From positions 4,025 to 68,024 of the forward strand of contig VXOY01000010.1 in assembly GCA_009839835.1 (NCBI GenBank): a DNA stretch of 64,000 bases, given 5' to 3'. Position 1 is the stretch's first letter. The number at the start of each line of letters is the position of its first letter. Below, piece by piece: positions 11,232-46,359 of the stretch. The stretch comes from Candidatus Spechtbacteria bacterium SB0662_bin_43. Lineage in GTDB: Bacteria; Patescibacteriota; Minisyncoccia; Spechtbacterales; 2-12-FULL-38-22. A program made the translations under genes and the position numbers. Under the pieces are notes generated by a model, which searched no databases, was not told the DNA's origin, and saw only the letters and a list, made by a program, of their open reading frames with translations.

Positions 11232-12116
11232 TTATTCCGTATCAGGTATAGGTAGCATTCCTGTGAACGAGAGTTGTGCTGGACCACTCATATACACTGG
11301 TTCACTTTTGTTGTTGGTGCCATCCCATTGCATTTTTAAGTCACCACCTGGCAGCGAAACTGTTGCTTGTTTATCTGAAAGTCCACGAAGTCGCGCAGCT
11401 ACTAATACAGCGCACGCGCCAGACCCGCAGGCGAGCGTGACACCCACTCCGCGCTCCCATACCCGCATTTTGATGTGATGTGGCGATACTATGTTTGCGA
11501 CTTCAAAGTTCGTTTTGTTTGGAAAGTCAGGGTGTGTTTCTACGATTGGACCAATGTCAGTCAGCGGGAAATCGTCTATTGGCATGTCAATGAACAGTAC
11601 TGCGTGCGGGTTTCCCATTCCTATACACGCTAAGTCGTAGGTTGTATTGTTGATTTGTAGTGTATGGTGTATGTCTGGTGATGATTGAGCATTGAGAACA
11701 GGGATGGTCTCTGGGTCTAACACAACAGGCTCCATAGCAACACGTACGCTATCTACAATTGACCCAGACATATGTATCTCTACTTGCACTATACCTGAAC
11801 CAGTTTCAACCGTTATATTTCTGTTTTTTGGTTTGAAATCGGCACGCTCAATGAGATATTTAACAAAACAACGAATTCCATTACCACACATATCGCTATA
11901 TGATCCATCTGCATTTACGATAACCATATGAGCATCAGCATTATTACTATCTGCTGCAATAAGAATTCCATCTGCGCCAATACCAAAGTGACGATCGCAA
12001 ATTTTTGGTGTTATCATCGTCCAGTCTCTATTTAGAAAATGACTGTTGGAGCCCAATGCATCAATCAGTATAAAATCATTACCAATACCCTGAACTTTTG
12101 TGAATGGAATAGACAT
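11232..12116 (-). CDS. dapF: Diaminopimelate epimerase
   Basis: FTKVQGIGNDFILID and MCGNGIRCF catalytic Cys blocks. Confidence 0.9.
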   Translation of the reverse strand: MSIPFTKVQGIGNDFILIDALGSNSHFLNRDWTMITPKICDRHFGIGADGILIAADSNNADAHMVIVNADGSYSDMCGNGIRCFVKYLIERADFKPKNRNITVETGSGIVQVEIHMSGSIVDSVRVAMEPVVLDPETIPVLNAQSSPDIHHTLQINNTTYDLACIGMGNPHAVLFIDMPIDDFPLTDIGPIVETHPDFPNKTNFEVANIVSPHHIKMRVWERGVGVTLACGSGACAVLVAARLRGLSDKQATVSLPGGDLKMQWDGTNNKSEPVYMSGPAQLSFTGMLPIPDTE

Positions 12117-12330: not shown

Positions 12331-12633
12331 ATGATGGGTAACTCTACATCAAAAAGGCGAGACGGTTTTGAAGCCGCCAGTCAAGAATTCAAAGATGGTG
12401 AATACCAGAAGGGTCGAGAAGCCGCTCTCAATGGTGAGGACCTGTCTGTAGATGCGAACGAATATCAGCAACAGGGCTATAAAGAAGGCGAATGGATCAA
12501 TGGTTATAAAGCCGCACGGAATGGTAAAGATTTGCCTCCAGATGCCAGCGATGCCTTTCAAAGAGGATATGAGGAGGTTGAATTTGAGTTCAATGGCGGA
12601 CATCCTCCTTCATGGCGCCCACCATCCTTTTAA
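12331..12633 (+). CDS. Small hypothetical protein with internal ~20-aa repeats
   Basis: Repeats EYQKGREAALNGEDLSVDANEYQQ / GYKEGEWINGYKAARNGKDLPPDASDAFQ; followed by a hairpin terminator at ~12655-12690. Confidence 0.4.
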   Translation: MMGNSTSKRRDGFEAASQEFKDGEYQKGREAALNGEDLSVDANEYQQQGYKEGEWINGYKAARNGKDLPPDASDAFQRGYEEVEFEFNGGHPPSWRPPSF

Positions 12634-12870
12634 TCTCCACAGTGCTGTCCATAAAATGAGTGAGGTAATCTTCTGGATTGCCTCACTCACCCAAATTCTT
12701 TTGTCTTTATACGAGACTTTTTTGTTTTTAAGAAGAGCATTGTACATTTTCTTTCAAAGGTACTATTTGATTGGTATCTTGGTGGTTGCTATAATATGAG
12801 GTGTTGGTTCTTCTATTTATAATAAGGTAGACAGTGGCGATTATTCAGGGCGTATTGACATAGAAGTCAT

Positions 12871-15408
12871 ATGGCAAATTCCAAAGAAGCACAATCACGG
12901 ATAAAGATTAACAAGTTTTTAGAAGACGCAGGGTGGCGGTTTTTTGATACAGAAAAAGGTGAGGCAAACATTCGGCTTGAAGCCAGTGTAAAAATAACCC
13001 AACAAGATATTGATGAAATGGGAGAGGATTTTGAGAATACCCAAAGAGGATTTGTAGATTATTTATTGTTGGATGATAAGGGATTTCCTTTTGTTGTCTT
13101 GGAAGCAAAGAGAGAAGGTAAAAATCCATTAGATGGTAAAGAACAAGCACGTAGGTACGCCCAGTCGCAGAATGCCAGGTTTGTTTTACTATCAAATGGC
13201 AATACGCATTACTTTTGGGATTTGGAAAGCGGTAACCCAGAAGTTATTATAGAGTTTCCAAAACAAGAATCATTGTTGCATCGTTCAGGGTTTCAGCCAG
13301 ATAACCAACGGCTATCCAGTGAAAGCGTTAAAGAGGATTATATTGCTTTGACGCAAAATCCAAACTATAAAGAGGATCCTCGTTATCGGGACAAAAGCAC
13401 AAGGGAAGAATATCTCTCTCAGGAGGACTTACGAATTTTACGTCCCTATCAACTCAGAGCAATTCATGCATTACAAAAGAGTGCTGGTGAAGGTAGTACC
13501 AGGTTTCTCTTTGAGATGGCAACAGGTACAGGGAAAACTCTTGTGGCAGGTGCGGTTATAAAACTTTTTTTGAGAACAGGCAACGCGAAACGAATTTTGT
13601 TTTTGGTTGATAGAGTAGAATTAAAAAATCAGGCGTATGATAATTTTAATACTTACTTAAAGAACGATTGCACATCTGTTATTTATAAAAACAACAGAGA
13701 CGACTGGCAGAAGGCAGAGATAGTCATCTCAACTGTTCAGAGTCTTGCTTCTCAAGATAAGTATAAGAAGTTTTCGCCAACTGACTTTGGCTTGGTGATT
13801 TCTGATGAGGCACACCGCTCAATTGGAGGGAGTAATGGGAATTATAGGGCAGTGTTTGAGTATTTTGTCGGATATAAGTTGGGACTCACCGCAACACCAA
13901 AAGATTACTTGAAAAATGTTGATTCACAAAAATTACCTCAAAAAGACCCTCGTGCGTGGGAACGTAGGCAGCTTTTGGATACCTATACGACTTTCGGTTG
14001 TCCAAGCGGTGAACCAACATTTCGTTACACACTAATCAGTGGTGTGAAAGATGAATATCTTATCAATCCTATTGCTGTTGATGCACGAACAGAAATAACC
14101 ACTCAGTTACTTTCAGAAAAGGGCTATGCTATTATTGCTGAGAATGATGAAGGAGAAAAAGAGGAAGGAGTGTTTTTTCATAAAGATTTTGAGAAAAAGT
14201 TTTTCTCAGATAATACTAATAAAGCATTCTGTGGGACGATTATTAAAAATGCTCTGCGAGATCCTATCAGCAGAGAAATTGGCAAGACCATTGTGTTTTG
14301 TGTTAGACAGAGCCACGCTTCTAAGATTACACAGATATTGAATCAAATGGCGGACAAAGTGTGGCCTGGCAAATACAACTCTGACTTTGCGGTACAGGTC
14401 ACATCAAATGTTCCTGATGCTCAACAAATGACGATGAATTTCGCAAACAATAATCTTACAGGACGCACCAATTTTCTCCCTGGTTATAAGTCAAGCAAGA
14501 CAAGAGTATGTGTAACAGTCGGGATGATGACAACAGGATATGACTGCAAGGATATTTTAAATCTTGCGTTGCTTCGTCCTATTTTTTCTCCAACAGACTT
14601 TGTGCAGATTAAGGGACGAGGTACCCGTAAGTTTACCTTCGGGTACAAAAATGAAGATGGGGAAGAGATAAAGAAAGAAAAAGATACATTCAAGATGTTT
14701 GATTTCTTTGCGAACTGTGAGTATTTTGAGGAAAAGTTTGATTATGATGAGGCACTCCAATTGTCAGTTGCACAGAGGAATGGCAGTAGTTTTTCTGCGG
14801 ATGATTTCAGCATCCAAAGTACGATGGACGAGGCAACTACTTATGCTCCTGATACTGTTACTCGGTACAAAGAAAAGCAGATTAGCAGTGCAGGGATGAA
14901 AGTAGATCGTAAATTATTTGAAAAAGCCAAAGAAGAAATTGGAAAGGATAAAGATATTCAAGATGCTGTTATGCAAGAACAGTGGGACAAGGCAATCAAT
15001 ATCACTGTGCATAAGTATCAAGATAAGCCTGAGCTCTATATCAATCTTGATAAACTTCGTCGTAGCGAGAGCTTAGATAGACGATTGACGTGGCGTGAGG
15101 TATTAGAGCGAGTATTTGGATTTGTTGATACCTTTCCATCAAAAGATGAAAAATTAGAGGAAGAATGCGAGAAGTTTATCTCTATTGATAAGCCCAAGAG
15201 TAAGTATGTACCATATATTAAGAATTTTATTAAGGCATACCTTACAGATGAAAGGTTTCATGCAATTATTGAAAACAGAAACTATGGAGAGCTCAATAAC
15301 TACGCGGGTTTTCCAATGTCAGATTTTAAGGCATTAGGAGAAGATTTACGCAAGAAATTACCCGAATACATAAAAGATTATATACCCATCAATCAATATA
15401 AGGAATAA
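12871..15408 (+). CDS. hsdR: Type I restriction enzyme R subunit (compact, 845 aa)
   Basis: N-terminal HsdR_N nuclease MANSKEAQSRIKINKFLEDAGWRF...DYLLLDDKGFPFVVLEAKREG. SF2 motifs EMATGTGKT (I), DEAHRS (II), LGLTATP (III), TTGYDCKD / QIKGRGTRK (V/VI). Confidence 0.85.
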   Translation: MANSKEAQSRIKINKFLEDAGWRFFDTEKGEANIRLEASVKITQQDIDEMGEDFENTQRGFVDYLLLDDKGFPFVVLEAKREGKNPLDGKEQARRYAQSQNARFVLLSNGNTHYFWDLESGNPEVIIEFPKQESLLHRSGFQPDNQRLSSESVKEDYIALTQNPNYKEDPRYRDKSTREEYLSQEDLRILRPYQLRAIHALQKSAGEGSTRFLFEMATGTGKTLVAGAVIKLFLRTGNAKRILFLVDRVELKNQAYDNFNTYLKNDCTSVIYKNNRDDWQKAEIVISTVQSLASQDKYKKFSPTDFGLVISDEAHRSIGGSNGNYRAVFEYFVGYKLGLTATPKDYLKNVDSQKLPQKDPRAWERRQLLDTYTTFGCPSGEPTFRYTLISGVKDEYLINPIAVDARTEITTQLLSEKGYAIIAENDEGEKEEGVFFHKDFEKKFFSDNTNKAFCGTIIKNALRDPISREIGKTIVFCVRQSHASKITQILNQMADKVWPGKYNSDFAVQVTSNVPDAQQMTMNFANNNLTGRTNFLPGYKSSKTRVCVTVGMMTTGYDCKDILNLALLRPIFSPTDFVQIKGRGTRKFTFGYKNEDGEEIKKEKDTFKMFDFFANCEYFEEKFDYDEALQLSVAQRNGSSFSADDFSIQSTMDEATTYAPDTVTRYKEKQISSAGMKVDRKLFEKAKEEIGKDKDIQDAVMQEQWDKAINITVHKYQDKPELYINLDKLRRSESLDRRLTWREVLERVFGFVDTFPSKDEKLEEECEKFISIDKPKSKYVPYIKNFIKAYLTDERFHAIIENRNYGELNNYAGFPMSDFKALGEDLRKKLPEYIKDYIPINQYKE

Positions 15409-15415
15409 TAAAGTT

Positions 15416-15485
15416 AGTTTACATCTCTTGACGAGATATAAACTAAATCGCATTTTAGTTTATATCTATAGGTAAGATGTAAACT
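15416..15485. promoter_or_regulatory. Nested perfect palindrome (A-B-loop-B'-A') in the hsdR / AlbA_2-gene spacer; candidate operator or RNA hairpin
   Basis: agtttacatct(15416-26) ... gatataaactaaa(15435-47) tcgca tttagtttatatc(15454-66) ... agatgtaaact(15475-85). A further gatataaacta copy at ~15558. Confidence 0.4.
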
Positions 15486-15597
15486 AAAATAAAAGATAGT
15501 TTTTGTTGACTGATGAAATCTGAGTTAGGTCGCGATTTAATGTATAGTGATAGGCGTGATATAAACTATTGTCCAAAAATATGCCATAATAAATAGC

Positions 15598-17031
15598 ATG
15601 GATGATATCGTGAATACAATTCTGAATATCCCAGAAGAGACACAAACCATTGAGTTTAAACGTTTAGCTGGCGATAAAGTTGTTCGTAAGATTTTGCAGA
15701 CTATCGTTGCTATGGCAAATACTGATGGCGGAACGATTATCTTAGGCGTTGATGACCCAGAGAAGACAGCATTGAAGGGATGTGATAGGATTTTCGGAGT
15801 TGAAGAGGATAAGGTTTTGCTTGATGAGATTTTGAAAGAGCAGTCAAAAATTAATCCACAACTTCAAGGTATTCAGTTTCGCCATATCAAGGCACAAGGT
15901 GATAAAACAATTGTTTTGATAACAGTTGAAAAATCTAAAGAATCATTAGTCTCATTGAGTAATGATGTTTTTACTCGTCTCAATAAAAGTAATAAAAAAT
16001 TAAACCCACAAGAAATTGTAAAGTGGAGTTATACCAAAGGATTTATAAAGGCGGATAAAGAATTGGTGGATGTGGATTTTGAACTTTTACAGACAAAATA
16101 TTTTGATGTCTGGTGCGGTGCAATGGGTATCTCTGGAGGAACCATCCAAAGCATTTTATCTCAGGCTGGTTTGGCAAAAAAAGGTCAGGAAGAAATCTTG
16201 CGACCAACAAGAGCAGCCGTTCTACTTTTCGCCGAACATCCTACTTACCTAATGGAAATACATTGTACTGTGCGAGTTATACAACTCCGAGGCACATTAG
16301 AACGATTTGAGACTGTTCCTAATTATGTTAGTAAGCCAAAAACTATTGGTGGTCCAATCATAGAAGTAATTCGTAATTCTCACGAGTATGTTTTGAGTTT
16401 ATTGGGGGCAGGTATAGAAATTCATTCTGGTTTTGTTAATACTTTTAAGATTCCCGAACGAGCAGTGAAAGAGGCTATTACGAATGCTGTCATACATCGT
16501 GATTACCGTATTCAAAGAGATGTTGAGATTCGTGTTTTTGAAGATAGAGTTGAGGTATTAAGTCCTGGGCTATTTACTTATAATATAACTGCGAATAATA
16601 TAGGGTTCGTGCGTGCAGATGGTGAGAGGAATGATTTGCTGGTCAAACATCTGCGAGAATTTCCTAATCCACCGAATTTAAACTTCAATGAAGGCGTTCG
16701 TGCAATGAGGGCGGAAATGGATAAGCAAAATTTATACCCTCCGATTTTTATGACATACCCTACATACCCTGACTCTGTGAACGTTATTCTCCTGAACGAA
16801 GAAAGACCGACAGAGTGGGAAAAGGTAAGACTATACCTATCAAGAAATAGGTATATTGATAATAAAACAGCAAGAAACATAACAGGGGTTGTACAAATGC
16901 ATGATATGTCACGTATGCTCAAGAGATGGACAGAGCAAGGATTTTTGGTAAAAATTGATGCCGAGTCTAAGTATTTTAAGGGTACAAAATATAAATTAGC
17001 AAATATTGATGAGATGGGTATAGAGCAGTGA
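15598..17031 (+). CDS. AlbA_2 (Schlafen-like, divergent AAA) + HATPase_c_4-like + wHTH protein embedded in the hsd operon
   Basis: N-terminal ETQTIEFKRLAGDKV...MANTDGGTIILGVDD (AlbA_2/pfam04326-like). C-terminal EAITNAVIHRDY block typical of the RecG-C-terminal-like HATPase_c_4 domain. Stop 17031 sits 10 nt before the hsdM start. Confidence 0.7.
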   Translation: MDDIVNTILNIPEETQTIEFKRLAGDKVVRKILQTIVAMANTDGGTIILGVDDPEKTALKGCDRIFGVEEDKVLLDEILKEQSKINPQLQGIQFRHIKAQGDKTIVLITVEKSKESLVSLSNDVFTRLNKSNKKLNPQEIVKWSYTKGFIKADKELVDVDFELLQTKYFDVWCGAMGISGGTIQSILSQAGLAKKGQEEILRPTRAAVLLFAEHPTYLMEIHCTVRVIQLRGTLERFETVPNYVSKPKTIGGPIIEVIRNSHEYVLSLLGAGIEIHSGFVNTFKIPERAVKEAITNAVIHRDYRIQRDVEIRVFEDRVEVLSPGLFTYNITANNIGFVRADGERNDLLVKHLREFPNPPNLNFNEGVRAMRAEMDKQNLYPPIFMTYPTYPDSVNVILLNEERPTEWEKVRLYLSRNRYIDNKTARNITGVVQMHDMSRMLKRWTEQGFLVKIDAESKYFKGTKYKLANIDEMGIEQ

Positions 17032-17040
17032 GAGTTTTAC

Positions 17041-19512
17041 TTGCAAACCCAAATGCAAGTAAAACTTAAAACCCCATTAAATAGGCAAAAAACAGCATCT
17101 TTACTTGCAAATCACTCAAAATTCACTATGTTAGATGCAGAAACAAAACGACACATTGATGCAGCAAGGCAAGTTCTTGTTGGTAAGGTGCCAGACCCAA
17201 AGGCGCAAGTAGACCAAATTACCACAGCCTTGATTTACAAGTTTATGGACGATATGGACAAAGAGTCGCAGGAGCTTGGTGGTAAGGCACAATTTTTCTC
17301 TGGGGATTTTAGTCAATATTCGTGGACGAAGATTTTAGATAGTAAATTATCTGGACAAGAGCGATTCAATTTGTATAATGAAGCAATTAAGAAGATGCCT
17401 CGCAATGAAAATATACCCCAACTTTTCAGAGATATTTTCAAAGATGCACTTCTACCATATCGCGATTCTGCAACTCTTTCACTGTTCTTGAAAGAGATTG
17501 ATAATTTTACATACGATCATAGCGAGAATCTGGGCGATGCATTTGAATATCTACTCTCTATACTTGGCTCGCAAGGGGACGCAGGTCAATTCCGCACACC
17601 TCGTCATATTATTGATTTTATTGTTGATGTTGTAGATCCAAAAAAGAATGAGACTATTTTGGATCCTGCGTGTGGAACAGCAGGCTTTCTTATATCCGCG
17701 TACAAGCATATTGTTGAAAATAATGATGGCAAGGATAATAAAACAGGAGAATTAACAGATAAAGAAACAACCTTAACACCAGACGAAAAACAGCGACTGG
17801 TCAAGAACGTTGTAGGGTATGATATTTCGCCCGATATGGTGAAGCTATCGTTGGTGAATATGTATCTTCATAAGTTTACCAGTCCGCAGATCTTTGAGTA
17901 CGATACTCTTACCAGCGAATCAAGATGGGATGATCAATTTGATGTAATCCTGGCTAATCCACCATTTATGACACCAAAAGGTGGTATTCGTCCACACAAG
18001 CGATTTTCCGTTCAAGCGAGTCGTTCCGAAGTACTTTTCGTGGATTACATTTTGGAGCATCTTAACTTAAAAGGACGTGCAGGTATTATTGTGCCTGAAG
18101 GGATTATATTCAAAGCAGATAAAGCATATAAATCACTCCGTAAGAAATTGATAGATGATGGATTGGTTGCTGTCGTGAGTTTACCTGCAGGCGTGTTTAA
18201 ACCATACTCAGGCGTAAAAACATCAGTTTTATTTTTTGATAATCAGGTTGCAAAAACAACAGATGAATTATTGTTTATAAAAATAGAAAATGATGGGTAT
18301 GAACTTGGAGACCAGAGGAGAAAAATCAAGGAGAATGATTTACCCGAAGCACTGGAAGTATTACAGCAATGGAAGCAGGGTAAGAAGAAAGAAAGCGAAC
18401 TTGCTTTATGGGTGAAGAAAGAAAAAATCGCAAAAAGCGAGGATTATAGCTTGGTAGGCGATAGATATGGAGAAGTAAAAGAAAACAAAAAGCAAAAATA
18501 TCCAATGGTGGAACTGGGAGAGGTTTGTGGTTTTCAGCGTGGCACAATGATTACGAAGAATATGACAGAAGAAGGCGATGTTCCTGTAATTGCGAGCTCT
18601 AAACGACCTTCGTACTACCACAATCAATCTAATAGACAGCCGCCTACGATTACAATATCATCATCTGGTGATGCTGGTTTTGTCAATTTTTTTGAGATTC
18701 CTATATTTGCATCTGACTGTTTTACGGTAGAACCCTTAGATAAAGATCAAATCAATATCTATTTTCTTTACTCTATACTAAAATCAAAACAAGAGTGTAT
18801 CTATAAACTGCAGAAAGGGGTAGCGCAGAAACATGTGTATCCAAAGGATATATCAACAATCAAGATTCCTCTTCCGCCACTTAAAATTCAACAACAAATC
18901 GTGGAAGAGATTGAAGTAAAGCAAAATGCCATCAATCATGCTCAAGAAATCATCAAAAATCTAGAGAGAGAGAGATTGTATTTTGGTAACGAAATTAGAA
19001 AACTAAAAAATGTAAAATGGGTTGAATTGGGTGAGGTGGTACAGACGATTGTTCCACCAAAAAAGATTAAAAAGAGAGATTTTGCACAAGTGGGAGATTA
19101 TCCAATTATAGATCAGTCACAGAGTCAGATTGCTGGGTGGAGTAGTGATGAATCTGCGGTTGTTAAAATTCAAAATCCTGTGGTAATATTTGGCGATCAC
19201 ACGTGCGCTATAAAATACGCTGATAGGCCGTTTATTCAAGGTGCTGATGGTTGTAAAATACTAGAGGTGTGTAGTAATTTGATGCCTAAATTTTTATTTT
19301 TCTATTTAAAAAATCACCCTATTCAAAAAGAAGGGTATAAGCGCAATTTCACTAGACTCAGGTTACTCAAAGTTCCTCTCCTGTCACATGAAATTCAAAA
19401 ACAACTCGTCGCAGAAGCAGAAAAAGAAGAAGCAATAATCAAAGCAAACCAAACCCTTATTAAAATAATGGAAGATAAGATTGATAAGGTTTTGCGGGAG
19501 GTAGGCAAGTAG
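17041..19512 (+). CDS. Type I R-M methyltransferase-specificity fusion (HsdM N-terminal ~480 aa + full two-TRD HsdS)
   Basis: HsdM motifs DPACGTAGFL (motif I) and ILANPPF (motif IV). S part: two TRDs, each opened by VELGEV, separated by the conserved IPLPPLKIQQQIVEEIE central repeat. Confidence 0.85.
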   Translation: MQTQMQVKLKTPLNRQKTASLLANHSKFTMLDAETKRHIDAARQVLVGKVPDPKAQVDQITTALIYKFMDDMDKESQELGGKAQFFSGDFSQYSWTKILDSKLSGQERFNLYNEAIKKMPRNENIPQLFRDIFKDALLPYRDSATLSLFLKEIDNFTYDHSENLGDAFEYLLSILGSQGDAGQFRTPRHIIDFIVDVVDPKKNETILDPACGTAGFLISAYKHIVENNDGKDNKTGELTDKETTLTPDEKQRLVKNVVGYDISPDMVKLSLVNMYLHKFTSPQIFEYDTLTSESRWDDQFDVILANPPFMTPKGGIRPHKRFSVQASRSEVLFVDYILEHLNLKGRAGIIVPEGIIFKADKAYKSLRKKLIDDGLVAVVSLPAGVFKPYSGVKTSVLFFDNQVAKTTDELLFIKIENDGYELGDQRRKIKENDLPEALEVLQQWKQGKKKESELALWVKKEKIAKSEDYSLVGDRYGEVKENKKQKYPMVELGEVCGFQRGTMITKNMTEEGDVPVIASSKRPSYYHNQSNRQPPTITISSSGDAGFVNFFEIPIFASDCFTVEPLDKDQINIYFLYSILKSKQECIYKLQKGVAQKHVYPKDISTIKIPLPPLKIQQQIVEEIEVKQNAINHAQEIIKNLERERLYFGNEIRKLKNVKWVELGEVVQTIVPPKKIKKRDFAQVGDYPIIDQSQSQIAGWSSDESAVVKIQNPVVIFGDHTCAIKYADRPFIQGADGCKILEVCSNLMPKFLFFYLKNHPIQKEGYKRNFTRLRLLKVPLLSHEIQKQLVAEAEKEEAIIKANQTLIKIMEDKIDKVLREVGK

Positions 19513-19529
19513 TGGCAGGATGATTATTT

Positions 19530-20234
19530 ATGGATTCTGTATATCAAATTTTTGATTATTTACCGATTAGATATCAGATAGACAGCGATTTTGATTATTT
19601 TGAATTTCTCAAAAACTCAGTAGAACAAAATTATCACATAGAGAATTATCATTTTGCAAGCATTGCACTCCACATGGTGTTTATGGGGATTGTATACCAT
19701 CACCTTTATATCTTGACTTGTGAGAGTGGTGGAAGACGAGATGCTCTGTTAAGAGATTCTAAGAAGATTCGTAATCAATACAATAAAAGAGGGAAAGTAT
19801 TGTCTTGGCAAAATTTTTCATCAGAAAATGAGCGTAGTGTTTTTAAATTCTTGAAGACTGTTGGAGCAAAAAATGATATGATTGATCAGTTGAAGCAGTT
19901 AGTTGATCAACGCAATGACTTAGTCCATACCAACGGATCGCTTTTGCAAGATCAGGTGCTTTTCGATGAGAAGGCAAATGACTATTTGCAAGGTATTAAA
20001 AATATCCACTATGTTTGTAGAGAGGAATATAAAAATTTATTTTTGAAGTTCTTGAATGAACTTCAATTTGATATTGAGGATATTCAGGATGCCGAGATGT
20101 ATCTTGAAAATTTCATTCGTAAATATGCTGTTAGCAGAAATTTACTTTCACATCTCGGAGATATAGTGCCAAAGAGTAGATATCTCCAAGGAACCCAATT
20201 ACTGTATAGTATTATTCAGGACAGGGGTTTGTGA
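19530..20234 (+). CDS. Hypothetical 234-aa protein, possible HEPN-like (R-x4-H) Abi-type component; 18 nt after hsdMS stop
   Basis: Soluble, helical-looking sequence. Single R-x4-H motif QRNDLVHT. Operonic spacing with hsdMS. No firm family call. Confidence 0.55.
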   Translation: MDSVYQIFDYLPIRYQIDSDFDYFEFLKNSVEQNYHIENYHFASIALHMVFMGIVYHHLYILTCESGGRRDALLRDSKKIRNQYNKRGKVLSWQNFSSENERSVFKFLKTVGAKNDMIDQLKQLVDQRNDLVHTNGSLLQDQVLFDEKANDYLQGIKNIHYVCREEYKNLFLKFLNELQFDIEDIQDAEMYLENFIRKYAVSRNLLSHLGDIVPKSRYLQGTQLLYSIIQDRGL

Positions 20235-20362
20235 TATAATAAGTGCCAGTCATCTTATCATTAATTTAATACGTTCTTTAAAAGCGATAAATTTATTTTG
20301 CGATATAATAAGAAGATGGTGTGTTATCTAGAGACGACGAGAGATACTAAATTAGAGTCATT

Positions 20363-22081
20363 ATGAGGTATACAAAATTTACAATTCAGAACTATAAGGG
20401 AATAGTTGGTCCGCTTATTGTTGATACTCATAAAATATCCCTCATGCCAATTATTGGAGTCAATGAGTGTGGTAAAACTACAATTTTGCAGGCAATTTTC
20501 GGTTTTGATTATTCTAATGATGTTTTCAATAAGACTGTTCAGCATTTGGAGGATATACATAATTTATATGAAACTAGTGATCAAACTCCCATCATCAGTG
20601 CGGAGATTGAGATAACAAATGATGAAATAAAAGATATTTTGGAAGAATTAGTTAATGATAATCAATGGTCTGATAAGGCACAGGCATATTTAGGATACTG
20701 TAAAGATATAAGTTTTACGTTTGCTATTGATAGAAATATGAGGACACGCAAGTATAATATTAAGTATAGGAAATTTACAGACAAAAATTTTAATCATGTA
20801 TTTGCTAAATCCATTATAGAAAAACTACCTTTCATTCTTTTCTTTGATGATTTTCGTGATAATATAGAAGAAAAAATTGAGATTAAAAAAGATTCTGACG
20901 GTAATCTCAGTGGATGGCTTGCGATAGTAGATCGCCTCTTTCGGGTTGCAGATGAAAATTTTGATATCCTACAGCTACCTAGCCTGGAGGAACGTAAGCA
21001 AAAAACAATTTTGGCCGCAGTAAATAAATTACTTAATGACACTCTAACACAAGAATGGCAGAATTTTAGACTTGATGACAAAGAGGCCCTGGAAATACAA
21101 GTGGACTATAAGCAGGAATCGGAGATGGTGGCGAATGGACAACCCGTACATAGGCACTTTGTGAGGTTTGATGTCGTAGAGAAAGATAAGGATGGCTATA
21201 AACATTTCTTTTTCGTTAGAAATCGTAGCAAGGGATTTTTCTGGTTTTTTAACTTTGTGATGAAATTGGAGTTCAATCCTAAATTAGTAGATAGTGCAGA
21301 AGGTGCAATTTATTTATTGGATGAACCAGGATCGTATCTGCATGCATCCGCACAAACAAAGCTATGCGAGAAATTGAAGTCATTGTCTGGTACCAATATA
21401 GTTTTGTACTGCACCCATTCTCATTATCTTCTTGATCCTAACGTAATACCATTCAACAACATCAAGGTGGCAGAGAAGAATCCCAGAAATTTTGCAATAA
21501 GGTTATTTCCCATTCATCAAGCTAGTGTATCTAGGAAAAATTCCAGATCAGCATTTCAGCCAATCATGGATGCACTCAAGATTAACCCCTTCGCACTAGA
21601 TATTAATCCTAATGAATGTGTGCTGATTGTTGAAGGTATAGATGATCATTATGCTTTTGAGATGTTGAAGGGCGATAGAAACGTTAAAATCCTGCCAGGA
21701 GTAGGAGCAGATTCTATACGGTATTTCATTTCACTAATGATTGCGTGGGGAGTTGATTATAGAGCATTGTGGGATAATGATCCAGTTGGGGCAAAAGCGA
21801 AAAAATCGGCAGGAGAGTTTTTCGGCGAAGTTGAATATAAAGATAAATTTTATTTGCTCCCACACGAAAATACCAAAAAGAAAAAGACCATTCTCCAAGA
21901 TTTATTTGATGGAGATGACATTTCCATCATTAAAAAAGAGCTGAGTTTACCCAAAAATACATCATTTAGTAGAGTTATCCAATCTTTATTTCATTCTGAC
22001 AAAAGACAACATGTTTTAAAGAAAGTATCTAAAAAAACAAAAGATAATTTTAAAAGAGTATTTATGATACTGAGTCTTTAA
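20363..22081 (+). CDS. OLD-family ATP-dependent endonuclease (ABC-type ATPase + Toprim)
   Basis: Walker A GVNECGKTT, Walker B/D-loop AIYLLDEPGSYLHASAQ, H-loop YCTHSHY. C-terminal Toprim VLIVEGIDDHYAFE ... ALWDNDPVG. 572 aa, like P2 Old / GajA. Confidence 0.8.
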   Translation: MRYTKFTIQNYKGIVGPLIVDTHKISLMPIIGVNECGKTTILQAIFGFDYSNDVFNKTVQHLEDIHNLYETSDQTPIISAEIEITNDEIKDILEELVNDNQWSDKAQAYLGYCKDISFTFAIDRNMRTRKYNIKYRKFTDKNFNHVFAKSIIEKLPFILFFDDFRDNIEEKIEIKKDSDGNLSGWLAIVDRLFRVADENFDILQLPSLEERKQKTILAAVNKLLNDTLTQEWQNFRLDDKEALEIQVDYKQESEMVANGQPVHRHFVRFDVVEKDKDGYKHFFFVRNRSKGFFWFFNFVMKLEFNPKLVDSAEGAIYLLDEPGSYLHASAQTKLCEKLKSLSGTNIVLYCTHSHYLLDPNVIPFNNIKVAEKNPRNFAIRLFPIHQASVSRKNSRSAFQPIMDALKINPFALDINPNECVLIVEGIDDHYAFEMLKGDRNVKILPGVGADSIRYFISLMIAWGVDYRALWDNDPVGAKAKKSAGEFFGEVEYKDKFYLLPHENTKKKKTILQDLFDGDDISIIKKELSLPKNTSFSRVIQSLFHSDKRQHVLKKVSKKTKDNFKRVFMILSL

Positions 22082-22249
22082 TGTTTGTCTTGTGGAATAC
22101 GTGTGGAAGGATTGGGTATTGTATATTTTGGTGGTGTGATGTATAATGATTGAACCGAAATGTACAAGGTATATTTTGGTGTTCTTTGAAAATTGAATAC
22201 GAGTAAATAGTTATACAACAACCATTTATAGTTGTTTCGAATATTTTTT

Positions 22250-23707
<1,458 letters not shown>

Positions 23708-24031
23708 ACATTTTTTTGTAGTTTTTTTCTTTTCTCTATCTTTTTTGAAAAGAGGAAAATGAAGTTGTCGACCAGATAGTATGTTTTGTGTAGTAGTGAT
23801 TTTCCATTGTTCTTTGATGATGGAATTTGATCTACGAACACAACACGTACAACAGCGATGAGGCAGGAATGGTACTTTCATATTCGTATGAAAGTACCAT
23901 TCCTTGCCTTGTCTCTGTATGCTGAAATGAGGGAAAGCATTTTCTTTCTCTGCTTGTAGGCAAGCTACACAGGAGTATGAACCTGTATTTCATATAATAT
24001 TCGGAACAACTATGAGTGGTTGTGTAACCTC

Positions 24032-40081: not shown

Positions 40082-40513
40082 ATGCTTACAATGATAGACA
40101 ATACGTTCCAAGAAATAAGAGCCCAAGGTAAAAAACTTACCAAAACACGTAGGGCTGTTATCAAGATGCTCTGTCGTTCACATCGCTTACTCACCGCCCC
40201 TGAGATACAGGAAAAGCTGAATCAGCAAGGTATTTCTGTCAATAAAACTTCTGTATATAGAGAACTGGAATTCTTAACGAGTCAAAAAGTTATACAGCAA
40301 GTGAGTATCAGCCCAGGGGTAACTCATTATGAGTCAGCCCTTCGTTCTCACCACCATCATCTCGTATGTACTGGCTGCGGAGATGCTACAGACATTGACA
40401 CGAAAGAGCTTGAAAAACACGTACAGAATATACAGACCAAGGCACAACAGCAAGGGTTCAGAGTACGAGACCATTCATTAGAATTTTATGGTCTGTGCGC
40501 CAATTGTAAATAA
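40082..40513 (+). CDS. Fur-family metalloregulator (Fur/Zur/PerR)
   Basis: wHTH region TAPEIQEKLNQQGISVNKTSVYRELEFL. Metal site HHHHLVCTGCG ... CANC. Confidence 0.8.
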   Translation: MLTMIDNTFQEIRAQGKKLTKTRRAVIKMLCRSHRLLTAPEIQEKLNQQGISVNKTSVYRELEFLTSQKVIQQVSISPGVTHYESALRSHHHHLVCTGCGDATDIDTKELEKHVQNIQTKAQQQGFRVRDHSLEFYGLCANCK

Positions 40514-40538
40514 TAATAATAATTAAATAATCATTACT

Positions 40539-41486
40539 ATGAGAATAGCATTTGTCGGCAAAGGTGGATCGGGTAAAAGTACCTTTTCAGCTTTGTTTTT
40601 CTTACACCTCATTAAAAATAATCACAACGTCATGTGTTTTGACGCTGATTTAAATATTCATGTACCTCAATTATTAGGAATGGATTTTCCAGAAAAAAAG
40701 TCTCTCTCATCAAATGAAAACACCAAGAGAGTTAAGGAGTACCTCATTGGAGAAAGCAAAAAAATCGCCTCCCCAGATTACTTCCAAAAAACCACCCCTC
40801 CCTCGCGTGGTGTTAACCTCTTTGAGCTCACGCCTGAAAATGAGATTATTGCATCATTTACAGAACCTTACAGCACTGGTTATGTAGCTATTGTTGGCAC
40901 GTACGAAGAAGATGAAATCGGGAGAAGTTGTTATCACACTAATTTGTCAATCTTAGAAAACATTTTGACCTTTGCCAAATTACAAGACGAAGACTGGATA
41001 ATAACTGATATGGTTGCTGGTATTGACGCCTTTTCCAATACCTTACACAAACAGTACGACGCACTCTTTTTGATCGTTGAGCCTACACAAGAGAGTATCG
41101 CTGTGTACGATCAATACAAAAAATTGGCGCAGCACGCTGGAATCAACGACCGCTTGTATGTTGTAGGAAACAAAATTGAAGACGAAGACGACGAGCAGTT
41201 TATCGCTGAGAATATTGATGACGGACACTACGTTGGCTCTCTCAAAAAAAGCAGCGCGCTCAAAAAATTGCGACAAAAAGGAGACCCGCTGACACCTGAT
41301 ATCTTTTCATATCTGGATGAATCCCTGTTTGAAAAACTCACAGAAATAAGCAAGAGAATGAAAAAGGATCCAAATACCAGATTAGAGGAGTTGTATCAAT
41401 TACACCTTAAGTATATTGACCAAGATTATATTAGGAACACAGTGGGTGATTTGTCCACTCAAATAGATGAGGAATTTGAGTTTTGA
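40539..41486 (+). CDS. MinD/ParA-superfamily P-loop ATPase (CooC/metallochaperone-like)
   Basis: Deviant Walker A IAFVGKGGSGKST followed by CFDADLN. Confidence 0.65.
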   Translation: MRIAFVGKGGSGKSTFSALFFLHLIKNNHNVMCFDADLNIHVPQLLGMDFPEKKSLSSNENTKRVKEYLIGESKKIASPDYFQKTTPPSRGVNLFELTPENEIIASFTEPYSTGYVAIVGTYEEDEIGRSCYHTNLSILENILTFAKLQDEDWIITDMVAGIDAFSNTLHKQYDALFLIVEPTQESIAVYDQYKKLAQHAGINDRLYVVGNKIEDEDDEQFIAENIDDGHYVGSLKKSSALKKLRQKGDPLTPDIFSYLDESLFEKLTEISKRMKKDPNTRLEELYQLHLKYIDQDYIRNTVGDLSTQIDEEFEF

Positions 41487-41489
41487 TAT

Positions 41490-42923
41490 ATGTATACACT
41501 CACCCCCATTATTCATCCCCAGATACATAAAACGTTGACCGATAAGGAGAAGATGAGAGAACTTCAAAACGCCTTTGGATCCCCTCTGAATCTGATATAC
41601 CCTCAAATCGTTACTGAAAATCTGAAACAGTTTTATGAAGTTTTTGCGTCTCATAAGATCAAGGGCGAAATTCTCTACGCCTATAAAGCCAATAAGTCAA
41701 CTGCTATTCTCAAAGAATTGAGTGTGACGAATTGCAAAATAGATGTTGCTTCAGAAAAAGAGTTGCAACAAGCGTTGTCAGCAGGTTTTGTTGGCGCTCG
41801 CATAGAAGCGACTGGTCCGAAAAACCGTGCCTTTATGAGGTTAGCACTACAGCATAGTGCAATCATCAATCTCAATAGCCCAAGCGAGCTGGAAACAATG
41901 TTGGAGCTACGCGAAGAATTGAATATTTTGATTCCTACCCCAGTCTTTATGAGGCTCAAAGAGTTCAAGTCAAAACAAACAAACGTTATTCAAAAAGACG
42001 TGAAGTTTGGTTTCAGTATCAACGAAGCAAAGAACGCACTCAAAACTATACATACTCATAAAGACAACCTTGATTTTATAGGTTTCTCGTTCCACCTCAC
42101 GAGCACCAGTGAAAAAGAACGGCTCGTTGCTATTGAACAGTCCTTATATTTAACTCTTGAGGCTATCAAACTGGGCTTAGACCCCAAGGGGATTAATATC
42201 GGTGGTGGCTTTAGTATAAATTACTTGGAGAGTAGTACTGAGTGGAACAACTACGTGTCTGCTATAAAAGCCTCTCTGCTTGACCCAACAAAACCCTCAA
42301 TGAGTTGGAATCAGTCAGGATTAGGACTGTGGGCTGAAAATGGAAAAATAAGAGGCGTAGCTACATTTTCAGACTTTTACAGACCGTACAATCAATTTGA
42401 AGAGCTCAATAAAGTGCTCAGCGCGGAACTGCCCACGTTTGGAACGATAAGTCAATTCTTGCAAGAAAATATGCTACACGTGTTTATTGAACCAGGCAGA
42501 TCAATGCTGGATCAATCTGGTGTCACGTTGGCTAAGGTAGGGTCAATCAACACATCTCTCAAGGATGAAACAGTTATTTTTTTGGATATGAATAGGTCTC
42601 ATATTAGCTCAATTGAACTTGAGTTTATGTCAGACCCACTGATTATTCCCAGTAACGCTAATAAAAAAACAAAAGCAAAAGACGGAGTCTTCTTGAGCGG
42701 AAATCTATGTTTGCCGCATGATTTTATCTGTCGGAGAAAAGTATTCTTTCCTTATTCTCCTCAACCAGGTGACATTTTGGCTTTCATCAATACCGCTGGC
42801 TATTTTATGGACTTTACTGAAAGTGAAACCATCCAACACCCGCACGCGTCAAAACTTGCTATTCATTCATCTGGTTGGTCGCTTGATGAAAAATATGAAC
42901 CATCCTTAATCACTAAAAATTAA
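41490..42923 (+). CDS. PLP-dependent decarboxylase, Orn/DAP/Arg decarboxylase family (alanine-racemase fold)
   Basis: YAYKANKS (PLP-lysine block, cf. YAVKAN) and NIGGGFSI glycine-rich block. Confidence 0.7.
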   Translation: MYTLTPIIHPQIHKTLTDKEKMRELQNAFGSPLNLIYPQIVTENLKQFYEVFASHKIKGEILYAYKANKSTAILKELSVTNCKIDVASEKELQQALSAGFVGARIEATGPKNRAFMRLALQHSAIINLNSPSELETMLELREELNILIPTPVFMRLKEFKSKQTNVIQKDVKFGFSINEAKNALKTIHTHKDNLDFIGFSFHLTSTSEKERLVAIEQSLYLTLEAIKLGLDPKGINIGGGFSINYLESSTEWNNYVSAIKASLLDPTKPSMSWNQSGLGLWAENGKIRGVATFSDFYRPYNQFEELNKVLSAELPTFGTISQFLQENMLHVFIEPGRSMLDQSGVTLAKVGSINTSLKDETVIFLDMNRSHISSIELEFMSDPLIIPSNANKKTKAKDGVFLSGNLCLPHDFICRRKVFFPYSPQPGDILAFINTAGYFMDFTESETIQHPHASKLAIHSSGWSLDEKYEPSLITKN

Positions 42924-42928
42924 GAATT

Positions 42929-45639: not shown

Positions 45640-46359
45640 GTGAACTTCATCAAAACAGGCTTTGGGCGAGCCTTGATCGCTCTTTCCGTGGGTCTAACAG
45701 CTCTTGTCGGCGTTGTCGCCATTGCCTCGGCAGATGGCGGACAACACCACCCTTCTGGACCGCCAGACTCGTCCCAGTTCGTCTGGTTGACGCAGGACGA
45801 GTTCGAAGAGGCGTGCGACATGGAAGTTCTCGTCACCGTGCACCAGGACGATGTCTATTGGGCGCAACAGGACTACTTTGTGGGTCCTACTACCCATGTG
45901 GCAGGACGCTGGGAACCTGTGTTCTTCGCAGAAGTCGCTCCTGGGGATGATCTGTGTGCCACCGTCAGCGTTTTCGTGAATATGGAAATCAGCCTCTTGT
46001 CCGACGAGGTTCCTGGAGCACTACTGACTGGCAACGAGACCGACTGGTATAGGGCATGCTCACGTCACAGCGAGTTGTCTATCGGCTTGTCTGTTGGCAT
46101 CGCCTGCTGGGGGTACGAACTTATCTTCTTGGGTCTGTATCACGGAAATTTCCTGCATGCAGCCTACCAGGTTCGTCCGCCTGCATGGCATCGCGATCGC
46201 TCGATTACCACGTACTACGGATTCGAGTACCAAGTGGAGAGCTTCACGTTGAGCTACTTCACTGAATTCGCCCTCAGGCAGAGCGTCATCTCAGGTGTTT
46301 CGGTTCTCATCGTTGACGCACGAGACGCCATCAACGAGAGCAGCGTCACGACAAATTGA
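45640..46359 (+). CDS. GC-rich secreted hypothetical protein (GTG start)
   Basis: Signal-peptide-like LIALSVGLTALVGVVAIASA; ~56% GC; no family. Confidence 0.55.
   Translation: MNFIKTGFGRALIALSVGLTALVGVVAIASADGGQHHPSGPPDSSQFVWLTQDEFEEACDMEVLVTVHQDDVYWAQQDYFVGPTTHVAGRWEPVFFAEVAPGDDLCATVSVFVNMEISLLSDEVPGALLTGNETDWYRACSRHSELSIGLSVGIACWGYELIFLGLYHGNFLHAAYQVRPPAWHRDRSITTYYGFEYQVESFTLSYFTEFALRQSVISGVSVLIVDARDAINESSVTTN

What the first reader, a model, noticed from the sequence alone, without database searches (positions are those of the whole stretch)
12871..22081. AT-rich defence island abutting the 16S rRNA gene: type I R-M with an embedded AlbA_2 gene plus a HEPN-like/OLD-nuclease pair
Five same-strand genes at visibly lower GC (~35-38%) than the flanking core genes sit between dapF and the 16S gene:
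- A compact (845 aa) HsdR with the full N-terminal PD-(D/E)xK nuclease and all SF2 motifs.
- A 190-nt spacer carrying a nested palindrome.
- An AlbA_2 + HATPase_c_4 protein whose stop lies 10 nt before hsdM.
- An HsdM-HsdS fusion.
- A 234-aa protein 18 nt downstream.
- After a 128-nt gap, an OLD-family ABC-ATPase + Toprim nuclease.

The tight spacing says the AlbA_2 gene, hsdMS and the 234-aa gene are one transcript. Type I R-M loci are known hotspots for embedded abortive-infection genes (PrrC-type arrangement). The two non-R-M components here are not a described pairing with type I systems to my knowledge. A defence island ending directly on an rRNA promoter region is also unusual.
Basis: partly seen in the sequence, partly recalled or inferred. 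Interest (0 to 1): 0.8.

Follow-up and report, generated by a model that had tools for sequence, protein, structure and literature searches.

The report
Type I restriction island with HEPN partner
This AT-rich stretch is a real anti-phage defence island, but it is three separate modules rather than one system, and its least-described part is a small predicted RNA-cutting (HEPN) protein that always travels with an unusual restriction enzyme whose methylase and DNA-recognition subunits are fused.

Summary
Five same-strand genes (12871-22081) lie between dapF and a solitary 16S gene. Their GC is 0.33-0.38, against 0.45 +/- 0.04 for the other genes. All domain calls were confirmed.

The 234-aa protein is a HEPN-fold protein with an invariant RNxxxH motif. 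It is not paired with the OLD nuclease. Every relative with enough upstream DNA (about 20 loci, several phyla, one Paracoccus plasmid) lies downstream of the same fused hsdM-hsdS gene. Where the contig reaches, the same EcoAI-like hsdR is there too, and none has an OLD gene. HEPN and HsdM identities co-vary (r = 0.70).

The OLD gene belongs to a large family of stand-alone, class-1-like genes. The AlbA_2+GHKL gene is interchangeable cargo: other loci carry KilA-N, Ymh-HEPN, a PrrC-like ATPase or nothing in that slot. Schlafen-GHKL genes in type I operons are already published.

Best reading: a natural "type IMS" restriction system with a dedicated PrrC-like suicide RNase, plus two independent add-ons. 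The RNase activity and its trigger are inferred, not shown. HEPN genes linked to R-M are a known theme, so I call this a new variant of a known kind, of moderate interest. Whether the island was acquired recently could not be tested, because no syntenic relative was found.

The parts
12767..12795 (+). Promoter-like site upstream of hsdR (TTGATT-17-TATAAT with TG)
   Evidence: Consensus scan, 10 of 12 matches. Pattern match only; function not shown.
12871..15408 (+). hsdR: EcoAI/type IB-like restriction subunit (PD-(D/E)xK nuclease plus SF2 motor), 845 aa
   Evidence: Domain hits: ResIII 1.6e-38, HSDR_N 3.7e-8; NF046051 EcoAI family 252 bits, below its 550 cut-off; PADLOC REase_I 4e-60. Motifs confirmed. 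It is 51-66% identical to the hsdR in 10 HEPN-linked loci.
15409..15597 (.). 189-nt spacer with four alternating copies of TTAGTTTAYATCT (two 33-bp palindromes, 41 nt apart)
   Evidence: The motif is absent from all other fetched loci. Role unknown: it could be an operator array or an RNA hairpin.
15598..17031 (+). Schlafen AlbA_2 + GHKL ATPase ('Schlatpase') gene, 477 aa: interchangeable cargo in the hsdR|hsdMS slot
   Evidence: PF04326 scores 65.5 bits and PF13749 scores 40.1 bits, both above cut-off. E14, E19 and D52/D53 align with the ExxxxE...GVDD stretch of the SLFN11 nuclease domain. A GHKL N-box EAITNAVIHRDY lies at 292-303. In other loci the same slot holds KilA-N, an unannotated 270-aa gene or nothing.
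17041..19512 (+). hsdM-hsdS fusion (N6-adenine methyltransferase plus two target-recognition domains); true start possibly ATG 17128
   Evidence: N6_Mtase 2.5e-56; Methylase_S in 2 stretches, 1.7e-28; PADLOC MTase_I 4e-101 plus Specificity_I. Homologues are 43-57% identical and start at M30.
19530..20234 (+). 234-aa HEPN-fold protein, conserved partner of hsdMS; predicted latent RNase
20363..22081 (+). Stand-alone OLD-family ABC-ATPase + Toprim nuclease (class-1-like), an independent module
   Evidence: AAA_15 1.2e-15 and AAA_21; OLD-like TOPRIM 22.1 bits; PADLOC Old 8e-17. There are more than 775 homologues. The homologues examined sit singly among unrelated neighbours.
22246..23718 (+). 16S rRNA gene forming the right border; not part of the island
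   Evidence: Rfam SSU_rRNA_bacteria, 1424 bits, full length.

Best explanation
The region is a composite defence island made of three modules that occur independently elsewhere.

Module 1, the conserved core, has three genes: an EcoAI/type IB-like HsdR, a fused HsdM-HsdS polypeptide with two target-recognition domains, and a dedicated 234-aa HEPN protein. The fusion is a natural counterpart of the engineered 'type IMS' EcoKI. HsdMS methylates host sites. With HsdR it translocates and cuts unmodified DNA. I propose that the HEPN protein is a latent metal-independent RNase held in check by the R-M complex, most likely through HsdMS, with which it is translationally coupled. It would be released when a phage disables or overwhelms restriction, shutting down translation and aborting the infection (PrrC-type guard).

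Module 2 is a Schlafen(AlbA_2)-GHKL ATPase gene dropped into the variable slot between hsdR and hsdMS. By analogy with characterised prokaryotic Schlafens it is an ATP-gated, oligomerising tRNA/RNA nuclease that works on its own.

Module 3 is a single-gene class-1-like OLD ATPase-Toprim nuclease with its own upstream region.

Shown: gene content, motifs, fold, strict genomic linkage and co-variation. Inferred: RNase activity, the physical HEPN-HsdMS interaction, the trigger, and the activity of modules 2 and 3.
For: Linkage of the HEPN gene to the R-M genes:
- 20 of 22 non-window HEPN-relative loci with at least 1.3 kb of upstream DNA show tblastn-detectable hsdM/S directly upstream.
- The gap is 1-70 nt or a 4-nt overlap, or one inserted cargo gene lies between.
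- L019 retains only the HsdS C-terminus ahead of an inserted AlbA_2 gene. L026 is filled by an AAA_13 gene up to the contig end.
- All loci that reach further upstream have the same hsdR family at 51-66% identity.
- Labelled hosts span Anaerolineaceae, Patescibacteria, Deltaproteobacteria/Desulfobacterales and a Paracoccus plasmid.
- This holds even for distant family members found at E 1e-18 to 1e-12.

Co-variation: pairwise HEPN and HsdM identities correlate across 14 loci (r = 0.70, Mantel p about 2e-4). HEPN diverges faster, 24-84% against 54-89%.

HEPN assignment:
- R128, H133 and E101 are invariant and N129 is near-invariant in 70 sequences.
- 22 of 70 members hit PF18735; others hit the MAE_28990, AbiA_CTD and Swt1 HEPN models.
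- Several members give weak hits to Csx1/Csm6 HEPN parts.
- One member is fused to a TIR domain.

Precedents:
- PrrC/EcoprrI and at least 16 R-M-linked HEPN clades (PMC3710099).
- 'RM guardian' systems (PMC12707154).
- An engineered HsdM-HsdS fusion that restricts in vivo with HsdR alone (PMC3510504).

Independence of modules 2 and 3:
- OLD homologues sit alone between guaA and dnaE, next to a DpnII R-M, or in another island.
- Distant Schlatpase relatives on plasmids are not next to hsd genes.
- The slots carry varied cargo.
Against: - No biochemical or expression data exist for any member.
- The window protein itself is below Pfam's HEPN threshold (18.7 vs 28.4 bits).
- Unlike PrrC there is no NTPase regulatory domain, so how activity would be gated is unexplained.
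- A physical HEPN-HsdMS contact was not modelled.
- An M-S fusion with two TRDs does not obviously satisfy M2S1 stoichiometry. The engineered fusion needed extra free HsdM in vitro.
- Sampling of loci was seeded by one peptide pattern and by HMM hits, so members in other contexts may have been missed.
Confidence: 0.6

Rival explanations
1. The HEPN protein is an addiction toxin rather than a guard. It stabilises the R-M module, or the element carrying it, by killing cells that lose the operon, with HsdMS or methylation status acting as the antidote.
For: Linkage is tight and often translationally coupled to hsdMS. In L014 and L040 hsdR looks frameshifted while hsdMS and the HEPN gene stay intact. 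HEPN toxins of toxin-antitoxin pairs are among the structural matches (7ae2, 5yep). The module is patchily distributed and occurs on a plasmid.
Against: No small antitoxin gene (such as an MNT) is adjacent. R-M systems already behave as addiction modules without help. The frameshifts may be assembly errors in metagenomic contigs. This reading and the guard model are not mutually exclusive.
Confidence: 0.15
2. The HEPN-fold protein is a non-catalytic structural or assembly subunit of the fused-MS restriction complex. For example, it could compensate for the odd stoichiometry of an M-S fusion or bridge HsdMS to HsdR.
For: It co-occurs strictly and co-varies with HsdM. The M2S1 problem of a two-TRD fusion is real. 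Many HEPN domains are non-catalytic adaptors (PMC3710099).
Against: R, N and H of the catalytic Rx4H motif plus E101 are invariant or nearly so over 70 sequences that are only about 20% identical overall. That pattern is the signature of an active HEPN RNase. E. coli and Klebsiella plasmids carry the same HsdR and a related M-S protein without any HEPN gene. L028 has split hsdM and hsdS yet keeps the HEPN gene.
Confidence: 0.1
3. All five genes form one integrated system: a type I R-M with an embedded AlbA_2 gene and a functional HEPN/OLD effector pair.
For: All five genes are on the same strand with short spacers, and no convincing terminator lies between the AlbA_2 gene and the HEPN gene. 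They share low GC.
Against: No other HEPN-linked locus contains an OLD homologue, and no OLD context contains a HEPN gene or hsd genes of this family. The AlbA_2 slot is empty or differently filled in most relatives. The OLD gene follows a 128-nt gap that carries repeated TATAAT-containing motifs.
Confidence: 0.05
4. The block is not a recently acquired island but an old resident of this lineage whose low GC reflects gene-specific bias.
For: There are no flanking direct repeats of 11 nt or more, and no integrase or tRNA at the borders. No close relative with an empty dapF-16S site could be found.
Against: All five genes are lower in GC and GC3 than essentially every other gene in 64 kb, and the tetranucleotide distance peaks there. 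The modules are patchily spread across unrelated phyla at 40-66% identity. The OLD and R-M modules occur separately elsewhere.
Confidence: 0.1

Closest known systems
PrrC anticodon nuclease embedded in the EcoprrI type IC R-M locus
   Same: A HEPN-motif RNase gene sits inside or next to a type I hsd operon. The proposed logic is the same: the R-M complex silences the RNase, and phage anti-restriction releases it.
   Different: PrrC carries an N-terminal ABC-type NTPase regulatory domain and lies between hsdS and hsdR of a type IC system. Here the protein is HEPN only (234 aa). It lies downstream of a fused hsdMS in a type IB-like system. It shows no detectable sequence relation to PrrC beyond the motif.
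Engineered 'type IMS' EcoKI (HsdM-HsdS fusion; Roberts et al. 2012, PMC3510504)
   Same: A single M-S polypeptide with two TRDs works with a separate HsdR. The authors placed such a form between the type IA/IC and type IB families.
   Different: That fusion was man-made from a type IA enzyme. Here the fusion is natural, widespread, associated with an EcoAI-like HsdR, and accompanied by a third conserved gene.
R-M-linked HEPN clades of Anantharaman et al. 2013 (AbiD/F, AbiU2, AbiJ, Ymh, ApeA and others), and Pfam RiboL-PSP-HEPN (PF18735)
   Same: Small HEPN proteins with Rx4-6H encoded in conserved neighbourhoods with R-M genes. The nearest profile is PF18735, and the nearest structure is the AbiA C-terminal HEPN domain.
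   Different: The family is not captured above threshold by PF18735. It has no NCBIfam or PADLOC model. RiboL-PSP-HEPN is described as linked to endoRNase L-PSP and ParB, not to type I R-M.
Prokaryotic Schlafen-GHKL 'Schlatpase' proteins (SLFN-pAgo RzAgo; stand-alone or HsdS-fused forms in Poribacteria type I operons)
   Same: The same two-domain core (PF04326 + PF13749) with the acidic nuclease residues and the GHKL N-box retained. Occurrence inside a type I R-M operon is already reported.
   Different: There is no Argonaute or other sensor domain. A C-terminal HTH was not detected by Pfam. The gene lies between hsdR and hsdMS rather than being fused to HsdS.
Class 1 OLD family nucleases (P2 Old, Vibrio cholerae class 1 OLD, E. 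coli YbjD)
   Same: A single polypeptide with an ABC ATPase and a C-terminal Toprim carrying the catalytic acidic motifs. It has no helicase, retron or separate Toprim partner.
   Different: It has no sequence-detectable relative among solved structures. Its Toprim score is just under Pfam's cut-off. It belongs to its own well-populated ~565-aa subfamily.
E. coli/Klebsiella IncF plasmid cluster: HsdR-like helicase + N-6 DNA methylase + 'TrlF family AAA-like ATPase'
   Same: The HsdR is of the same family (57.5% identity) and the M-S fusion is related (49% over 585-640 residues). The gene order is also R, MS, then a third gene.
   Different: The M-S protein is shorter (677 aa), and the third gene is a 951-aa ABC-type ATPase rather than a HEPN protein. 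In L022 a large ATPase-like gene and the HEPN gene occur together.

Membership tests
Type I restriction-modification system | HsdR with a PD-(D/E)xK nuclease and an SF2 (DEAD/ResIII) motor | tested here: met
   HSDR_N plus ResIII. Motifs D63...E78xK80, GTGKT, DEAH, TATP and GRGTR are present.
Type I restriction-modification system | Gamma-class N6-adenine methyltransferase HsdM (SAM motif and NPPF) | tested here: met
   N6_Mtase 191.7 bits. DPACGTAGF is at 208 and NPPF at 306.
Type I restriction-modification system | A separate HsdS subunit with two TRDs, assembling as R2M2S1 | tested here: not met
   Two Methylase_S stretches are present, but they are fused to HsdM in one ORF. Stoichiometry cannot be tested here. 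This is therefore a variant ('type IMS'-like), not the canonical architecture.
Type IB (EcoAI/FtnUII) HsdR equivalog NF046051 | Score above the curated cut-off (550 bits) | tested here: not met
   The score is 252.5 bits. It is the best NCBIfam hit but below cut-off. The protein is related to type IB without being an equivalog.
HEPN superfamily | A conserved Rx4-6H motif with a polar residue after R | tested here: met
   R128-N129-x3-H133. R and H are invariant and N is at least 90% conserved in 70 sequences.
HEPN superfamily | The all-alpha HEPN fold | tested here: inconclusive
Pfam RiboL-PSP-HEPN (PF18735) | Score at or above the gathering threshold (28.4 bits) | tested here: not met
   The window protein scores 18.7 bits. 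22 of 70 relatives match at E <= 0.01, best 4.4e-6.
PrrC/RloC anticodon nucleases | An N-terminal ABC/Rad50-like NTPase domain fused to the HEPN nuclease | tested here: not met
   The protein is 234 aa with no ATPase domain. An AAA_13 PrrC/RloC-like gene is a separate neighbour in L026 only.
PrrC/RloC anticodon nucleases | tRNA anticodon cleavage triggered by inhibition of the partner R-M | not testable with these tools
   This needs biochemistry and phage assays.
Schlafen AlbA_2 + GHKL ('Schlatpase') | PF04326 and PF13749 in one polypeptide, above their thresholds | tested here: met
   65.5 bits (cut-off 25.3) and 40.1 bits (cut-off 26).
Schlafen AlbA_2 + GHKL ('Schlatpase') | Retained acidic nuclease residues and GHKL ATP-binding N-box | tested here: met
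   E14, E19 and D52/D53 align with the ExxxxE...GVDD stretch of SLFN11. EAITNAVIHRDY is at 292-303. That these are the catalytic residues rests on published Schlafen work, which I recall rather than tested.
Schlafen AlbA_2 + GHKL ('Schlatpase') | A C-terminal helix-turn-helix (reported for over 90% of small members) | tested here: inconclusive
   Pfam finds nothing in the last 108 residues. No structure was predicted for this protein.
OLD family nuclease, class 1 | An ABC ATPase plus a C-terminal Toprim in one protein | tested here: met
   AAA_15 58.5 bits (cut-off 32.1). OLD-like TOPRIM scores 22.1 bits against 23.2, marginally below. PADLOC Old 8e-17. EGxxD and DxD motifs are present.
OLD family nuclease, class 1 | Stand-alone: no adjacent UvrD/GajB, retron or separate AriB | tested here: met
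   The neighbours are the HEPN gene and the 16S gene. Homologues sit singly in three unrelated contexts.
Gabija / PARIS | A GajB helicase partner (Gabija), or a split AriA plus DUF4435 AriB (PARIS) | tested here: not met
   There is no helicase gene next to it, and no DUF4435 hit even at E <= 5.
MADS (methylation-associated defence system) | MAD2/MAD5 equivalog scores and the multi-gene mad cluster | tested here: not met
   MAD2 scores 109 bits against 720, and MAD5 scores 26 against 400. The type I models score far higher.

The most novel reading that the evidence does not exclude
hsdR-hsdMS-HEPN is an obligate three-component restriction system: a distinct natural 'type IMS' subtype of type I R-M. 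In it, a minimal HEPN RNase lacking any NTPase domain is a physical subunit of the methyltransferase/restriction complex. It is switched on directly by the conformational state of HsdMS or HsdR. DNA restriction and RNA-level abortive infection would then be hard-wired in one machine found across several phyla. The slots around hsdMS would also serve as a dedicated landing pad for further RNA-targeting effectors (Schlafen, Ymh-HEPN, PrrC-like).
Probability: 0.3. Interest if true: 0.65.

Novelty: new variant of a known kind. Interest (0 to 1): 0.45.

Why it matters
Two ideas in restriction biology get a natural test case here.

First, an HsdM-HsdS fusion was built in the laboratory and proposed as an evolutionary bridge between type I families. 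This locus and its relatives show that such a fusion exists in nature and is widespread, including on E. coli and Klebsiella plasmids with a different third gene.

Second, PrrC has remained the only well-studied R-M-embedded anticodon nuclease (PARIS being the other known RM guardian). A 240-residue HEPN-only protein that is strictly linked to one R-M family would be a minimal model for how a restriction complex gates a suicide RNase.

The practical value is in annotation. The family is currently labelled 'hypothetical protein' and is missing from NCBIfam and PADLOC.

Tried and rejected
- **Word-indexed homology search for the 234-aa protein.** It found only one relative. The exhaustive HMM search was needed to reveal the family.
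- **Locus search with the 70-sequence alignment.** It failed for lack of a conserved stretch. A 9-sequence alignment worked.
- **Viral contigs.** No relative of the HEPN protein was found.
- **Empty-site test.** The best DapF relatives (63-65% identity) lie in miaA-dapF-aminotransferase neighbourhoods with no 16S gene and no synteny. The test is inconclusive.
- **Mobility signatures.** No direct repeats of 11 nt or more flank the island, and there is no integrase or tRNA at the borders.
- **Solved structures.** None was found for the OLD protein by sequence. Foldseek of the HEPN model against the PDB was uninformative. The AFDB library was unavailable.
- **The 270-aa slot gene of L011.** It has an RNxxxH-like motif, but a profile comparison with the HEPN family is not significant. 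I do not call it HEPN.
- **Spacer motif.** It is not found in any other locus, so its role could not be tested comparatively. No plus-strand promoter was predicted in the spacer.
- **MADS, Gabija and PARIS assignments.** Considered and rejected; see the membership tests.
- **'TrlF' literature search.** It returned only unrelated spectroscopy papers.
- **Cluster look-up for organism names.** It yielded only one name, Anaerolineaceae.

Full report
**What is there**

- hsdR at 12871-15408.
- An AlbA_2/HATPase_c_4 gene at 15598-17031.
- An hsdM-hsdS fusion at 17041-19512.
- A 234-aa gene at 19530-20234.
- An OLD-like gene at 20363-22081.

dapF lies upstream on the minus strand at 11232-12116, followed by a native-GC 100-aa ORF at 12331-12633. 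A full-length 16S gene begins at 22246.

The island genes have GC 0.33-0.38 and GC3 0.30-0.34. The 47 other ORFs taken as genes in the window have GC 0.451 +/- 0.039 and GC3 0.443 +/- 0.071. The tetranucleotide distance to the rest of the window peaks over 15-21 kb.

Pfam, NCBIfam and PADLOC profile searches confirm every domain call, and the catalytic motifs are all present.
- Homologues of HsdMS start at the equivalent of M30 (ATG 17128). The gap after the AlbA_2 gene may be 96 nt rather than 9.
- An 845-aa HsdR is normal for the EcoAI/type IB family, which is its best match.
- The 'nested palindrome' is four exact, alternating copies of TTAGTTTAYATCT.

**The 234-aa protein is a HEPN protein and belongs to the R-M, not to OLD**

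The word-indexed search found a single relative. The exhaustive profile search found 272 cluster representatives, mostly about 240 aa.

In a 70-sequence alignment with only about 20% mean identity, H48, M52, E101, R128 and H133 are invariant and N129 is nearly so. This gives the HEPN signature RNxxxH. Further support:
- 22 of 70 members hit Pfam HEPN_RiboL-PSP, and others hit three further HEPN models.
- Some members weakly hit the HEPN parts of Csx1/Csm6.
- With this alignment AlphaFold gives pLDDT 94.6.

The decisive result is genomic context. I fetched loci through exact look-ups, a genome scan, a metagenome scan and a plasmid search, then located relatives of the window's proteins by tblastn.
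- 20 of 22 non-window loci with at least 1.3 kb upstream of the HEPN gene show hsdM/S directly upstream.
- L019 retains the HsdS C-terminus ahead of an inserted AlbA_2 gene. L026 has an AAA_13 gene filling the contig to its end.
- hsdMS is usually fused. It is split in L028.
- The gap to the HEPN gene is 1-70 nt or a 4-nt overlap, or one inserted gene lies between.
- Every locus reaching further upstream has the same hsdR family at 51-66% identity.
- This holds for remote family members as well: P0163 in an Anaerolineaceae MAG, P0206, and the Paracoccus zhejiangensis plasmid pPZ02, where the gene is annotated 'hypothetical protein'.
- None of these loci contains an OLD homologue.

Across 14 loci, pairwise HEPN identity tracks HsdM identity (r = 0.70, Mantel p about 2e-4). 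HEPN diverges faster. One family member is fused to a TIR domain. The family has no NCBIfam or PADLOC model.

**The OLD gene stands alone**

It has more than 775 homologues at 46-66% identity, all about 565 aa. The three distinct contexts examined show a single gene:
- Next to a DpnII type II R-M, between tuf and nusA.
- Alone between guaA and dnaE in a Pyrinomonadaceae genome.
- In an unrelated SIR2/DUF87 island.

There is no UvrD-like, retron or separate Toprim partner and no DUF4435 signal. It therefore fits class 1 of the OLD family as reviewed in PMC10568477 and studied in PMC12392090. In the window it follows a 128-nt gap with a repeated TG(T/C)GATATAATAAG motif. The 'HEPN-like/OLD pair' is not supported.

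**The AlbA_2 gene is cargo in a variable slot**

The slot between hsdR and hsdMS is filled differently across loci:
- Empty in L014, L016, L017 and L029.
- KilA-N in L004 and L015.
- An unannotated 270-aa gene in L011.

The slot between hsdMS and the HEPN gene holds:
- AlbA_2 genes in L017 and L019.
- A Ymh-type HEPN in L014.
- A 981-aa ATPase-like gene in L022.
- Upstream of the HEPN gene in L026, with no hsdMS on that short contig, a PrrC/RloC-like AAA_13 gene.

The window protein keeps the acidic residues that align with the SLFN11 nuclease site, and it keeps the GHKL N-box. A 2026 preprint names this two-domain unit 'Schlatpase'. It reports tRNA cleavage by the Schlafen domain and ATP-driven tetramerisation by the GHKL domain. 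It also describes stand-alone or HsdS-fused copies in type I operons of Poribacteria. The pairing with type I is therefore already described. Distant plasmid relatives sit away from hsd genes, which fits an autonomous module.

**How it most likely works**

The anatomy is shown. Module 1 is a type I enzyme with a fused M-S subunit and a dedicated HEPN protein. Modules 2 and 3 are independent add-ons.

The mechanism is inferred. By analogy with PrrC/EcoprrI and the R-M-linked HEPN clades of Anantharaman et al., and with 'RM guardians', the HEPN protein is probably a latent RNase. It would be silenced by the R-M complex and unleashed when restriction is blocked.

The fused M-S form has an experimental precedent. 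An engineered EcoKI M-S fusion restricts in vivo with HsdR alone, although it needed extra HsdM in vitro.

Three weak points remain:
- The protein has no NTPase domain to gate it.
- No interaction was modelled.
- The stoichiometry of a two-TRD fusion is unresolved.

The rivals (addiction toxin, structural subunit, a single integrated five-gene system, ancestral block) are listed with their evidence in the rival-explanations section.

**Acquisition**

Composition and the patchy cross-phylum distribution argue for horizontal origin. However, no att-like repeats, integrase or tRNA mark the borders. The nearest DapF relatives share no synteny.

I found nothing that links the island functionally to the 16S gene. 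The OLD stop codon is 164 nt from the mature 16S 5' end.

**Verdict**

This is a real, well-described island with correct domain calls, but the proposed pairing is wrong and the novelty claim for AlbA_2 is overstated. The part worth attention is the conserved hsdR-hsdMS-HEPN triad. It is a new variant within the known theme of R-M systems with HEPN partners. Interest is moderate.

Noticed in passing
window 22246-23718: The 16S rRNA gene is solitary. No 23S or 5S gene is detected anywhere in the 64 kb, and purQ follows at 24145.
   Followed up: partly
whole window; dapF 11232-12116: NCBI labels the source MAG 'Candidatus Spechtbacteria bacterium SB0662_bin_43'. The window encodes dapF, purQ, a galT-like gene and an F1Fo ATPase. 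DapF's best relatives (65% identity) sit on contigs of about 3 Mb, and Chloroflexota-labelled ones are at 58-60%. The taxonomic label may be unreliable.
   Followed up: partly
L045 (E. coli plasmid NZ_CP116482.1), 4406-11954: 613 PLSDB plasmids, mostly Klebsiella and E. coli, match HsdMS. The one IncF example examined (NZ_CP116482.1) carries a same-family HsdR (57.5% identity), a 677-aa M-S fusion and a 951-aa 'TrlF family AAA-like ATPase' between finO and repA. This looks like a sister system with a different third gene.
   Followed up: partly
L014 2714-5205; L040 2042-4553: hsdR appears frameshifted or split in two loci, while hsdMS and the HEPN gene stay intact. This could be real decay of the restriction subunit or an assembly error.
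   Followed up: no
P0212 (538 aa): One member of the HEPN family carries a C-terminal TIR domain (TIR_2, 1.5e-15). This is a second effector fused to the same HEPN module.
   Followed up: no
window 20230-20243 and 20299-20312: A direct repeat TG(T/C)GATATAATAAG lies upstream of the OLD gene. The first copy overlaps the HEPN stop codon. Each copy contains TATAAT, so the OLD gene may have its own promoter or promoters.
   Followed up: no
window 40082-45443: A second lower-GC stretch (0.39-0.41) holds five plus-strand genes: Fur, a CbiA/ParA-like ATPase, a PLP-dependent decarboxylase, PALP+rhodanese and a class-V aminotransferase. These are metabolic genes, not defence genes.
   Followed up: partly
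window 50437-52188 and 45640-46359: These are the two highest-GC ORFs in the window (0.576 and 0.551). Neither has a Pfam match.
   Followed up: no
window 12331-12633: A 100-aa ORF with internally repeated G-Y/E-x-x-G...NG-x-DL motifs, native GC (0.47) and no family match lies between dapF and the island. It is called as a gene in the public assembly.
   Followed up: no
L018 2475-3767; L022 2647-5592: Further unannotated cargo genes sit between hsdMS and the HEPN gene. One is a 431-aa protein with no Pfam hit. The other is a 981-aa protein that, from my reading of the sequence, has an N-terminal PHP-like motif and a Walker A motif; it also has no Pfam hit.
   Followed up: partly
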